The notes under the pieces: model-generated | Told to the model about the DNA's origin: nothing | Databases searched by the model: none | What the model saw: the letters and a program-made list of their open reading frames with translations, nothing else | Source: a virus | Taxonomy: Duplodnaviria > Caudoviricetes | DNA: 64,000 nucleotides | Reading direction: 5' to 3' (one strand) | IMG/VR virus record: IMGVR_UViG_3300025133_000020 | Shown: one piece after another, positions 30,793 through 31,641 of the stretch | How the letters are laid out: each line of letters opens with the position of its first letter | How positions within the stretch are numbered: position 1 is the first letter of the stretch | Position numbers and translations under genes: made by a program

Positions 30793-31167
30793 ATGGAAGA
30801 AGTAGGATAGATTAAAAACAACAAATTAATAACCATAACACGGCAAGACATGCCCTATGGTTACCAAGCTGTACAGTCAGCACATTCGATAGCTTATTTC
30901 GCAATAGAGCATCGAGAAGAATTCGAAAGATGGCACGAAACCTCACAATACATGGTTTCCTTGGGTGCTAAAGATGAAGACCATTTACGGGAATTAATTA
31001 CCAAAGCTGATGAGAAGGGCATTAAGATGTCTATATTCATTGAGCCTGATATTGGTAATGAGATAACGTCCATTACGTTGGAACCGTGTGAAGCGGCACG
31101 TAAGATGACCAGCTCGTTACCAAAATTAATGAAGAAAATCGATGCGGAATTTGCAAGTGTCACATAA
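30793..31167 (+). CDS. Pth2-like peptidyl-tRNA hydrolase with in-frame TAG at codon 6
   Basis: MEEVG*IKNNKLITITRQDMPYGYQAVQSAH...EPDIGNEITSITLEP; TAG at 30808-30810. Confidence 0.7.
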
Positions 31168-31191
31168 TTATTGTATATTTGCAAAGTATGT

Positions 31192-31247
31192 GCGGGTGGT
31201 CGAGTTGTTTAGACGGTGAGCCGCAAGCTCATTTACGGGGGTTCGAC
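31192..31247 (+). pseudogene. truncated tRNA-Cys(GCA)-like remnant
   Basis: Acceptor 5' strand, D arm, anticodon arm (loop CCGCAAG) and half of a T arm; the 3' part is missing. Confidence 0.55.
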
Positions 31248-31305
31248 ACAATAGAAGAAGCGGTGGAAGACTGCTTGGAATACGTAGTAATAGAACAAAT
31301 GTGAT

Positions 31306-31473
31306 ATGACAGAAAAAGAGATGTTTGAAAAGTCTTTCAGTAGACCAAAGAATTACTTTAAGCTAACACCAAGGCGTCAATGGGAAATTGATGATATGTT
31401 AGGTATCTTGGATTGGTTAGGTGGGAACCTTACCGAAGAAGAAAAGAAACGATTTGACGATTATTACGACTAA
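31306..31473 (+). CDS. small hypothetical protein (55 aa)
   Basis: MTEKEMFEKSFSRPKNYFKL...; below the ORF track cut-off. Confidence 0.55.
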   Translation: MTEKEMFEKSFSRPKNYFKLTPRRQWEIDDMLGILDWLGGNLTEEEKKRFDDYYD

Positions 31474-31577
31474 TGAAGAAGAGTACAATACTTAAAATAA
31501 TCGTAGCACTATTGACTATGGTCGGTGGGTTCGTATTAGGTGTACTAACTAGAATGTTAATTACAATGCTTACGTAG
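31473..31577 (+). CDS. small TM peptide (34 aa) whose TAG stop lies inside the suppressor tRNA
   Basis: MKKSTILKIIVALLTMVGGFVLGVLTRMLITMLT*. Confidence 0.4.
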   Translation: MKKSTILKIIVALLTMVGGFVLGVLTRMLITMLT

Positions 31578-31641
31578 CTCAAATGGTTAGAGCGACAGAC
31601 TCTAAATCTGTAGGTTGTGGGTTCGAACCCCACCGTTCGCA
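31568..31641 (+). tRNA. amber suppressor tRNA (anticodon CUA)
   Basis: Cloverleaf with ACAGA-CTCTAAA-TCTGT arm; two mismatches in the acceptor stem. Confidence 0.8.

What the first reader, a model, noticed from the sequence alone, without database searches (positions are those of the whole stretch)
30793..31641. Peptidyl-tRNA hydrolase gene interrupted by an amber codon, about 400 nt upstream of an amber-suppressor tRNA
Seen: ATG GAA GAA GTA GGA TAG ATT AAA... (TAG at 30808-30810) is in frame with the Pth2-like ORF. The first beta-strand motif KLITITRQD lies between the TAG and the next ATG (30850). A CUA-anticodon tRNA lies at 31568-31641. The rest of the window uses the standard code. Established: Pth2 enzymes begin with a K-x-V/I-I-V-R-x-D strand that is part of the fold. 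Inference: expression depends on suppression, a single-gene amber switch that could report suppressor level or release-factor status and so control ribosome rescue.
Basis: partly seen in the sequence, partly recalled or inferred. Interest (0 to 1): 0.85.

Follow-up and report, generated by a model that had tools for sequence, protein, structure and literature searches.

The report
Amber-gated Pth2 gene plus suppressor tRNA
A large marine phage keeps a UAG stop at codon 6 of a small tRNA-hydrolase-like gene near its own UAG-reading tRNA; well over 100 related phage loci keep the same early stop, and its type changes with the tRNA's anticodon, so the enzyme is probably made only when that tRNA overrides the stop.

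Summary
The gene reads ATG-GAA-GAA-GTA-GGA-TAG-ATT (TAG at 30808-30810), in frame with a Pth2-fold domain whose first strand lies before the next ATG. A tRNA(CUA) lies 400 nt downstream.

The TAG is neither an error nor recent damage:
- Contigs from three marine metagenome studies carry it unchanged.
- The frame after it is under strong purifying selection (dN/dS 0.05-0.12).
- 85 of 92 loci in one set, and 56 of 58 distinct loci in an IMG/VR set, have a short ATG leader, then TAG, then a purine, at the same place.
- The codon after the TAG is often GTA, AAC or AGT, and the internal ATG is not conserved. Downstream initiation therefore does not explain it.
- A tRNA(CUA) lies within 6 kb in about 90% of long loci.
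- The three non-TAG gates I could assess sit with the matching suppressor: TAA with UUA twice, TGA with UCA once.
- Neither the window nor a 152-kb relative shows general TAG recoding.

Best reading: expression of a Pth2-like enzyme gated by the suppressor tRNA.

What stays open: why the two are coupled, whether the protein is a real peptidyl-tRNA hydrolase (the canonical Lys is Tyr here), and whether this window's tRNA, with two acceptor-stem mismatches, works.

This scan has already noted the same cassette in at least 41 other genomes. I found no published description.

The parts
30729..30760 (+). Bacteroidota-type promoter motif (TTTG-N20-TAcaTTTG), 33 nt before ATG 30793
   Evidence: The pattern TTTG-N17-22-TANNTTTG occurs 10 times in the window against 2.1 expected, and 0 of 100 shuffles reach 10. 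Nine copies are on the gene strand. It makes ATG 30793 the first ATG of the transcript (inference).
30793..30807 (+). Five-codon leader, Met-Glu-Glu-Val-Gly, starting at the only canonical start codon upstream of the Pth2 fold
   Evidence: Identical in L099-L102. Other relatives have ATG leaders of 1-8 codons.
30808..30810 (+). In-frame amber codon (the gate), followed by A (TAG-ATT)
   Evidence: Unchanged in contigs from 3 metagenome runs of 3 studies. TAG sits at the homologous place in 85 of 92 and 56 of 58 loci. The next base is a purine in 72 of 72 distinct gates, against 37 of 61 ordinary TAG terminators.
30811..31167 (+). Pth2-like domain (118 codons plus TAA), with strand 1 at codons 12-17 of the full product
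   Evidence: Pfam PF01981 at 34.2 bits. A PDB profile search hits 2zv3, 1rzw/3erj and 1q7s. AF2 model pLDDT 89.9. Foldseek TM 0.7-0.78 to Pth2 structures. dN/dS 0.05-0.12 against relatives.
30850..30852 (+). Internal ATG (Met20). It is not a conserved start, and its product would lack strand 1 with the invariant Arg17
   Evidence: This codon is ATA or ATC (Ile) in L098 and L103-L109, where the next ATG is about codon 54 and gene callers gave 70-71 aa fragments. It is Leu in most of the family.
31150..31181 (+). Second promoter motif, overlapping the end of the Pth2-like gene and leading into the tRNA region
   Evidence: Conserved in front of tRNA-Cys in L099 and L001.
31568..31641 (+). tRNA with anticodon CUA (amber suppressor). 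No encoded CCA, and acceptor stem with U3.C70 and U4.U69
   Evidence: 66.4 bits. The cloverleaf is the minimum-energy fold. Orthologous tRNAs in L103, L104 and L041 share the body and have intact acceptor stems that differ by compensating changes. Only this tRNA and one in L001, out of 69 suppressor tRNAs, have two acceptor mismatches.
34490..35689 (+). Phage CCA-adding enzyme (context: the suppressor tRNA lacks an encoded CCA end)
   Evidence: Pfam PolyA_pol head domain at 131.7 bits.
29389..29750 (+). Phage tmRNA (context: a ribosome-rescue neighbourhood with ClpP 28643-29338 and DnaJ 27097-28143)
   Evidence: Rfam RF00023 at 85.5 bits. Pfam hits. Same gene order in L001, L099 and L103-L108.

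Best explanation
This is a translational gate that depends on a suppressor tRNA.

Proposed sequence of events:
1. The gene is transcribed from its own Bacteroidota-type promoter.
2. Ribosomes start at AUG 30793 and make Met-Glu-Glu-Val-Gly.
3. They meet UAG at codon 6.
4. Release factor 1 ends translation there, unless the phage's tRNA(CUA) is made, given its CCA end and charged, and decodes the UAG.
5. Only then is the 124-residue Pth2-fold enzyme produced.

The gate sits in a disordered N-terminal add-on in front of the canonical Pth2 fold. Any inserted amino acid is therefore tolerated, and the output reports only the balance between suppressor activity and termination.

Shown (computationally): the gate is conserved and specific, it changes together with the suppressor anticodon, there is no conserved alternative start, the frame is under purifying selection, and the surrounding code is standard.

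Inferred: read-through by this tRNA, and the purpose. My preferred purpose is that the enzyme, a tRNA-ester hydrolase, is wanted only while stop codons are being read through. It would either clear peptidyl-tRNA and rescue by-products alongside the neighbouring tmRNA and ClpP, or limit the suppressor itself.
For: - Anatomy and fold.
- The TAG is real. Purifying selection, dN/dS 0.05-0.12, with mostly synonymous changes in the codons between the TAG and codon 20 against L001 and L103-L105.
- Conservation: TAG at the same site in 85 of 92 loci and in 56 of 58 distinct IMG/VR loci, although TAA ends about 72% of long ORFs there and TAG only about 9%.
- The codon after the gate is GTA, GTT, AAC, AGT, AGC, ACG, AAA or GGC in many loci. 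These are not start codons.
- A tRNA(CUA) lies on the same strand within 6 kb in 50 of 56 distinct gated IMG/VR loci and in most long loci of the first set.
- Covariation: L071 has a TAA gate with tRNA(UUA), and L075 a TGA gate with tRNA(UCA). The 675-kb phage G002 has a TAA gate, and its only suppressor among 40 tRNAs is UUA.
- No general recoding in the window or in the 152-kb relative G001.
- A second gene supports selection for gating. A partner gene in relatives either overlaps the end of the gated gene or, in the 5 loci where it does not, carries its own ATG-x-TAG-ATT gate.
Against: - Nothing is experimental. No run on record as RNA was found.
- This window's tRNA has two adjacent acceptor-stem mismatches, which is rare (2 of 69).
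- The neighbouring tRNA-Cys is decayed and the partner gene is absent, so the cassette may be eroding in this lineage.
- The closest relatives, L099-L102, show no tRNA(CUA) within 4 kb.
- TAG ends ordinary genes here (5 of 77 long ORFs), so a strong suppressor would be costly.
- The canonical catalytic Lys of Pth2 aligns with Tyr24, so peptidyl-tRNA hydrolase activity is unproven.
- ATT, a weak start codon, follows the TAG in this window and in most loci.
Confidence: 0.75

Rival explanations
1. A mini-ORF followed by re-initiation. The ribosome translates ATG-(1-8 codons)-TAG as a tiny upstream ORF, terminates, and restarts at the adjacent ATT (30811) or at ATG 30850. The suppressor tRNA plays no part.
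For: ATT follows the TAG in 62 of 85 loci and can act as a weak start codon. Stop-start adjacency is a common coupling device (established knowledge). This window does have an ATG 13 codons further on.
Against: About a quarter of gates are followed by GTA, GTT, AAC, AGT or AGC, which initiator tRNA does not read. A mini-ORF could end in any stop, and TAA is by far the commonest stop in these genomes, yet about 95% of gates are TAG. The stop type tracks the suppressor anticodon. The internal ATG is absent in most relatives and would remove strand 1 and the invariant Arg17.
Confidence: 0.1
2. Genome-wide TAG reassignment (code 15, TAG read as an amino acid in late genes). The Pth2 TAG would be just one of many recoded codons, lying elsewhere in a genome of about 350 kb.
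For: Phage-encoded tRNA(CUA) is the hallmark of TAG-recoded phages (PMC10879173, PMC10607447). Only 64 kb of this genome is visible. The relative G001 is estimated to be 43% complete.
Against: TAG read-through gains less open frame than TGA or TAA in the window, in 28 long loci and in 152 kb of G001. Same-frame ORF pairs split by a single TAG are no more common than those split by TGA or TAA. TAG ends real long ORFs. The window's endolysin has no in-frame TAG. A codon used freely as sense would not stay fixed at one site across 40%-identity relatives.
Confidence: 0.05
3. A leaky attenuator read by host tRNAs. The early TAG only keeps expression very low, through rare near-cognate read-through, and the tRNA(CUA) nearby serves some other purpose.
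For: Low-level natural UAG read-through exists in bacteria (established knowledge). This window's tRNA looks sub-optimal. 6 of 56 gated IMG/VR loci show no suppressor within 6 kb.
Against: It does not explain the match between TAA or TGA gates and UUA or UCA tRNAs. It also does not explain the tight linkage, which is often about 130 nt on the same strand.
Confidence: 0.05
4. A sequencing error, a recent nonsense mutation, or a dead gene.
For: A single in-frame stop close to the start of a small gene is what a pseudogene often looks like. Gene callers truncated the gene to 71-105 aa.
Against: The same letters occur in three independent metagenome studies. The TAG is conserved in more than 100 diverged loci. 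dN/dS is 0.05-0.12.
Confidence: 0.02

Closest known systems
Stop-codon recoding in phages with phage-encoded suppressor tRNAs (TAG read as Gln, 'code 15'; crAss-like, Lak and phAss-1 phages; PMC10879173, PMC10607447, PMC11210395)
   Same: A phage brings its own tRNA(CUA), and an in-frame TAG in a phage gene must be decoded for the protein to be made. The host is probably Bacteroidota.
   Different: There, dozens to hundreds of TAGs are scattered through late genes and TAG is no longer a terminator. Here the code is otherwise standard over 64 kb plus 152 kb. One gene (two in some relatives) carries one stop at a fixed N-terminal position. Ochre and opal versions also exist, each with the matching tRNA.
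prfB (release factor 2) autoregulation through an early in-frame UGA (PMC12421855)
   Same: An early in-frame stop codon in a translation-factor gene makes its expression depend on how efficiently that stop is recognised.
   Different: prfB escapes by a +1 frameshift and senses its own product. Here the frame continues unchanged, escape needs a dedicated tRNA, and feedback by the product is only a hypothesis.
Archaeal/eukaryotic peptidyl-tRNA hydrolase 2 (Pfam PF01981; PDB 2zv3, 3erj/1rzw, 1xty, 1wn2, 1q7s Bit1)
   Same: Same fold (TM 0.7-0.78). The sequence scores above the Pfam cut-off. The shared motifs are R-x-D-L in strand 1 and Q-x-x-H-A in helix 1.
   Different: It has a leader of about 10 residues carrying the gate. 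The canonical Gly-Lys aligns with Gly-Tyr. D-A-G-x-T is replaced by the invariant E-P-D-x-x-N-x-x-T. Activity is untested.
Orphan suppressor tRNAs of standard-code jumbo phages (e.g. Xanthomonas phage XacN1, PMC5852040; Agrobacterium phage Atu_ph07, PMC6102473; phage G, PMC12484599)
   Same: Large, tRNA-rich phages with a suppressor tRNA but no general recoding. The XacN1 authors state that they could find no target gene for it.
   Different: Here a conserved target gene is identified. The Pth2-like genes of XacN1 and Atu_ph07 themselves have no gate, so the cassette is not universal.
Amber mutants grown on suppressor hosts (classical phage genetics), and lambda bar minigenes with Pth (recalled from memory, not checked here)
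   Same: A nonsense codon makes a phage gene conditional on a suppressor tRNA. Very short ORFs ending in a stop are known sources of peptidyl-tRNA that make cells depend on Pth.
   Different: Those are laboratory mutations or toxic minigenes. This is a naturally conserved arrangement with a suppressor encoded alongside it.

Membership tests
Pth2 (PF01981) peptidyl-tRNA hydrolase family | Sequence match to the family profile above the curated threshold | tested here: met
   34.2 bits against a cut-off of 23, E 3.4e-8. A profile of 60 relatives hits PDB Pth2 chains at E 2e-8 to 4e-4.
Pth2 (PF01981) peptidyl-tRNA hydrolase family | Pth2 alpha/beta fold with a four-stranded sheet | tested here: met
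   AF2 model pLDDT 89.9 with strands at 12-17, 54-59, 79-84 and 90-96. Foldseek top 15 hits: 14 chains of Pth2 entries (2zv3, 3erj, 1rlk, 1q7s, 1wn2, 1xty, 1rzw), TM 0.56-0.78, plus 2gax (unknown function, TM 0.58-0.62).
Pth2 (PF01981) peptidyl-tRNA hydrolase family | Catalytic Lys (Gly-Lys after strand 1) and Asp (D-A-G-x-T), as described for S. solfataricus Pth2. The residue roles are recalled from memory. | tested here: inconclusive
   In the profile alignment the Lys position is Tyr24. The Asp position aligns with the invariant Glu84 of E-P-D. A carboxylate is kept and the Lys is not.
Pth2 (PF01981) peptidyl-tRNA hydrolase family | Hydrolysis of peptidyl-tRNA | not testable with these tools
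   Needs an enzyme assay or complementation of a pth mutant.
Amber suppressor tRNA | tRNA cloverleaf with anticodon CUA | tested here: met
   ARAGORN, Rfam tRNA 66.4 bits, and the minimum-energy fold is a cloverleaf.
Amber suppressor tRNA | Intact 7-bp acceptor stem | tested here: not met
   5 of 7 pairs, with U3.C70 and U4.U69 mismatched. Orthologs in L103, L104 and L041 have 7 of 7, with compensating changes.
Amber suppressor tRNA | Aminoacylation and decoding of UAG in vivo | not testable with these tools
   No RNA data. The amino-acid identity cannot be read from the sequence. The 'Q' in database proteins is a gene-calling artefact.
Genome-wide TAG reassignment (code 15) | Many in-frame TAGs inside conserved genes, and TAG not used as a terminator | tested here: not met
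   This covers the 64-kb window and a 152-kb relative, not the whole genome.
prfB-type autoregulatory recoding | Escape from the early stop by a programmed +1 frameshift | tested here: not met
   The Pth2 frame continues in frame 0 directly after the TAG.
Suppressor-gated Pth2-like cassette (unpublished; recognised by this scan) | ATG, then at most 8 codons, then a stop, then a purine, directly in front of the Pth2-like strand 1 | tested here: met
   ATG-GAA-GAA-GTA-GGA-TAG-ATT, with the gate 11 codons before Arg17.
Suppressor-gated Pth2-like cassette (unpublished; recognised by this scan) | Cognate suppressor tRNA on the same strand within a few kb | tested here: met
   The tRNA(CUA) starts 758 nt after the TAG.

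The most novel reading that the evidence does not exclude
The cassette is a self-contained homeostat for stop-codon read-through. The gated Pth2-like enzyme (with its small beta-protein or HD-domain partner in other phages) would act on the suppressor tRNA's own aminoacyl or peptidyl ester, or on the ribosomes it stalls. Suppressor activity would then induce its own antagonist or clean-up factor, which would let a standard-code phage run a controlled level of UAG, UAA or UGA read-through during infection. That would be a natural tRNA-based counterpart of prfB autoregulation. It would also explain what the 'orphan' phage suppressor tRNAs are kept in check by.
Probability: 0.18. Interest if true: 0.92.

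Novelty: new variant of a known kind. Interest (0 to 1): 0.8.

Why it matters
Suppressor tRNAs are common in large phages that otherwise use the standard code, and their purpose is an acknowledged puzzle. The XacN1 authors, for example, report finding no target gene (PMC5852040). A conserved gene whose early stop codon always matches the phage's suppressor anticodon gives these tRNAs a first concrete, testable client.

It also points to a natural lock-and-key translational switch:
- It could be studied in a cultured phage. Tenacibaculum phage pT24 has the gate and the tRNA.
- It corrects systematic mis-annotation, because these genes are called as 70-105 aa fragments or read with TAG=Q.
- It may offer compact, naturally tuned amber, ochre and opal gate-plus-tRNA pairs for synthetic biology.

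Tried and rejected
- No whole genome is held for the window, so recoding outside the 64 kb could only be tested on a relative.
- I first took the 'Q' at the gate position in P0002, P0010 and P0012 as evidence for Gln. I rejected this: their contigs carry TAG, and the proteins translate only with TAG=Q.
- Nucleotide search of cultured phages found only tRNA-level matches.
- XacN1 and Atu_ph07 have suppressor tRNAs and Pth2-like genes, but those genes have no gate. They are not examples.
- No run on record as RNA holds the stretch, so there is no expression evidence either way.
- Terminase profiles on G001, meant to inspect late genes for in-frame TAG, gave only a sub-threshold hit. I used frame statistics instead.
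- The partner protein in relatives has no Pfam or PHROG family, no named PDB or AFDB fold match and no Atlas hit.
- Five full-text literature searches aimed at this, plus three papers read in part, gave no description of a stop-gated Pth2-like gene; two further searches on related topics surfaced none either.
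Full report
**What is in the sequence**

ATG is at 30793, followed by GAA GAA GTA GGA, TAG at 30808-30810 and ATT at 30811. The frame then stays open to TAA at 31165-31167. The next canonical start in frame is ATG 30850.

Read through, the product has 124 residues. It matches Pfam PTH2 above the curated threshold, with the match beginning at residue 15, upstream of Met20. A profile of 60 relatives hits solved archaeal and human Pth2 chains (2zv3, 1rzw/3erj, 1q7s, 1wn2, 1rlk, 1xty). 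Those alignments start at the Lys-Leu of the phage protein and at residue 2-6 of the solved chains.

An AlphaFold model built on that alignment has pLDDT 89.9. Residues 1-10 are disordered and strand 1 is at 12-17. Fourteen of its 15 significant structural matches are chains of Pth2 entries, the other being 2gax, a protein of unknown function; TM for the best matches is 0.7-0.78. So the leader and the TAG are an add-on in front of a complete Pth2 fold, and a product started at Met20 would lack strand 1 and the invariant Arg17.

The tRNA at 31568-31641 has anticodon CUA and scores 66.4 bits on the Rfam tRNA model, the best of the window's tRNAs. It lies 400 nt after the gene's stop. It has no encoded CCA end.

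**The TAG is real and the frame is translated**

Contigs from three marine metagenome runs, from three studies, cover 30742-30884 without a single difference.

Against six relatives, the 100 codons starting at Lys-Asn-Asn-Lys-Leu (which begins before Met20) give dN/dS of 0.05-0.12, with dS of 0.6 to above 1.9. The codons between the TAG and codon 20 differ from L001 and L103-L105 mostly by synonymous changes. This excludes an error or a dead gene.

**Conservation of the gate**

I collected 91 related loci from IMG/VR and JGI metagenomes, at 31-85% protein identity. For each I read the frame upstream of the conserved Thr/Ser-Arg-x-Asp strand.

- In 85 of 92 loci, counting the window, the last in-frame stop is TAG. 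TAA occurs 3 times and TGA once. Three distant fusion proteins have no stop.
- The stop lies 8-14 codons before the Arg in 82 of the 85 TAG loci (19-22 in the other three). Where an in-frame ATG is present it lies 1-8 codons upstream of the stop (leaders such as MK, MT, MN, MKDT, MTH, MKNM).
- A second, separately drawn set of 79 IMG/VR loci gave 56 TAG gates among 58 distinct assessable loci. A few of these loci overlap the first set.

In these AT-rich genomes TAA ends about 72% of long ORFs and TAG about 9%. A mini-ORF that could end in any stop would not be TAG 95% of the time.

The closest relatives are L099-L102, at 90% identity. They have the identical ATG-GAA-GAA-GTA-GGA-TAG-ATT. Others in the same clade have MKKEVDCI-TAG, MKKEQDCM-TAG or MKDM-TAG.

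**Other ways to start are not conserved**

The codon after the gate is ATT in 62 loci. It is GTA in 15, and AAC, AGT, AGC, GTT, ACG, AAA or GGC in others. None of the latter can be read by initiator tRNA.

The window's Met20 is Ile (ATA or ATC) in L098 and L103-L109. There the next ATG is about codon 54, which is why databases hold 70-71 aa fragments of these genes, including one from this window. In most of the family that position is Leu.

A promoter motif of the Bacteroidota type (TTTG-N20-TAcaTTTG) lies at 30729-30760. The motif is enriched five-fold in the window, with 9 of its 10 copies on the gene strand. This makes ATG 30793 the first ATG of the transcript.

**Link to the suppressor tRNA**

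In the first set, most loci with enough flanking DNA carry a tRNA(CUA) on the same strand, often about 130 nt upstream of the gate. In the IMG/VR set, 50 of 56 distinct gated loci have one within 6 kb.

The stop type changes together with the anticodon:

| Locus | Gate | Suppressor tRNA found |
|---|---|---|
| L071 | TAA | UUA, 1.8 kb away |
| L075 | TGA | UCA, 1.2 kb away |
| G002 (675 kb, 98% complete) | ATG-AAA-GAA-ACA-TAA-ATT | UUA, the only suppressor among its 40 tRNAs |

No TAG-gated locus has a UUA or UCA tRNA.

Every one of 72 distinct gates is followed by a purine, against 37 of 61 ordinary TAG terminators. From memory of the E. coli literature (Bossi; Miller and Albertini, 1983, not re-read here), a purine after UAG favours suppression. 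However, the preference could also reflect the Ile or Val codon at that position.

**Not general recoding**

Treating TAG as sense gains less open frame than doing the same with TGA or TAA. This holds in the window, in 28 long loci and in all 152 kb of the closest long relative, G001.

Same-frame ORF pairs split by one TAG are no commoner than those split by TGA or TAA. TAG ends 5 of 77 long ORFs in the window and 19 of 135 in G001. No other gene in the window has an ATG-leader-TAG arrangement.

G001 is estimated to be 43% complete, so the genome is probably about 350 kb. Late genes outside the sampled DNA remain unchecked.

**This window's particulars**

The acceptor stem of the tRNA has U3.C70 and U4.U69. 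Among 69 distinct suppressor tRNAs, only this one and one of the two in L001 have two mismatches.

Orthologous tRNAs in L103, L104 and L041 share the same D, anticodon and T arms. Their acceptor stems are fully paired and differ from one another by compensating changes, which argues that the tRNA family is functional. The cloverleaf is still the minimum-energy fold of the window's copy. Whether this copy is charged cannot be told.

Next to it, a tRNA-Cys that is intact in L099 and L001 has lost its 3' third. A small partner gene found in most relatives is missing. Some erosion of the cassette in this lineage is therefore possible, although the Pth2-like frame itself is well conserved.

The neighbourhood is DnaJ, a phage metallopeptidase, ClpP, a tmRNA, two small ORFs, the gated gene, the tRNA region, and then a CCA-adding enzyme. 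The same order occurs in relatives. This fits a role in translation quality control but does not prove one.

**How it most likely works**

I commit to suppressor-gated expression (0.75). RF1 ends translation after five residues unless charged tRNA(CUA) decodes codon 6. Because the gate lies in a disordered extension, any inserted residue will do. That fits the diversity of the neighbouring suppressor tRNAs, whose discriminator base is A, U or G and whose bodies differ.

An extra line of evidence comes from relatives. A conserved 80-89 aa beta-protein follows the gated gene.
- In 23 distinct loci (of 29 distinct partner sequences found) its ATG overlaps the end of the gated gene, so it is translationally coupled to it.
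- In the 5 loci where it does not overlap, it has its own MK-TAG-ATT or MEK-TAG-ATT gate.

Selection therefore seems to demand that these proteins appear only under suppression.

Why that is so remains inferred. The enzyme may clear peptidyl-tRNA and rescue by-products of read-through, or it may restrain the suppressor. Its chemistry may also differ from canonical Pth2, because the canonical Lys aligns with Tyr24 and D-A-G-x-T is replaced by the invariant E-P-D.

**Comparison and novelty**

The mechanism belongs with phage suppressor-tRNA recoding (PMC10879173, PMC10607447) and resembles prfB's early stop (PMC12421855). It differs from both: one fixed N-terminal stop in an otherwise standard-code genome, a dedicated tRNA, and amber, ochre and opal versions.

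Seven full-text searches found no description. The XacN1 paper explicitly reports no identifiable target for its suppressor tRNAs.

The cultured Tenacibaculum phage pT24 has the gate (ATG-AAA-TAG-ATA) and a tRNA(CUA) 2.6 kb upstream. Its GenBank CDS starts at an internal ATG.

This scan's own notes record the same cassette in at least 41 other genomes. I reached my reading before seeing them and re-tested the claims here.

Noticed in passing
window 32078-32180 (and structured stretch to about 32650): A tRNA-like RNA (Rfam tRNA 40.8 bits) has a good acceptor stem and T arm. It also has a 37-nt hairpin inserted in the D arm, and the anticodon stem is capped by a UAAG tetraloop, so there is no anticodon. 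Its fold z-score is -2.3. It is followed by GC-rich hairpins, a terminator-like element, and then a GIY-YIG/NUMOD3 homing endonuclease at 32785-33384.
   Followed up: partly
window 31192-31255: A decayed tRNA-Cys(GCA). The 5' two-thirds aligns with the intact tRNA-Cys of L099 and L001, including the promoter motif in front. The 3' half of the T arm and the acceptor 3' strand are gone.
   Followed up: yes
window 27097-29750: A phage-encoded quality-control block: DnaJ, phage metallopeptidase, ClpP, and a tmRNA (29389-29750, Rfam 85.5 bits) that ARAGORN missed in the window. The same gene order precedes the gated gene in L001, L099 and L103-L108.
   Followed up: partly
L004:4345-4596, L037:6360-6614, L001:3312-3581 and about 25 other loci: A conserved 80-89 aa all-beta partner protein (motif F-H-F-N-K ... 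I-P-M-W-V ... T-K-E-T-P) follows the gated gene. It overlaps that gene's stop in 23 distinct loci. It carries its own ATG-x-TAG-ATT gate in the 5 loci where it does not overlap. It has no known family or fold match. It is absent from this window and from L099-L102.
   Followed up: partly
L093:2956-3906 (Tenacibaculum phage pT24), L094 (XacN1), L051, L072, L080, L088, L091: A weak HD-domain protein of about 190 aa is fused to the Pth2-like domain. It is C-terminal in pT24 and N-terminal in XacN1. In five metagenomic loci it is encoded right next to the Pth2-like gene. This hints at joint action on tRNA ends. The pT24 GenBank CDS starts at an internal ATG and misses the gate.
   Followed up: partly
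L008:1963: One relative has a normal ATG start but an internal TAG (CAT-TAG-GGC, about codon 33) inside the Pth2-like domain, with a tRNA(CUA) 0.4 kb downstream. The gate is in a different place but the pairing is the same.
   Followed up: partly
G002 (L201-L234), gate at about 56780, tRNA(UUA) at 37754-37827: A 675-kb phage with 27% GC has an ochre-gated Pth2-like gene and a single ochre suppressor, although TAA ends 426 of its 517 long ORFs. Suppression must be weak or tightly controlled there.
   Followed up: partly
P0002, P0010, P0012 (L096-L098): Public protein collections hold these genes either cut at an internal Met (70-105 aa) or translated with TAG=Q. A 'Gln' at the gate position in database proteins is an artefact of the gene caller.
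   Followed up: yes
window, 10 sites (e.g. 27048, 30729, 31150, 33948, 37072): The motif TTTG-N17-22-TAnnTTTG is enriched five-fold, almost only on the gene strand and in front of genes. It points to a Bacteroidota host, in line with the marine metagenome origin and the Tenacibaculum phage relative.
   Followed up: partly
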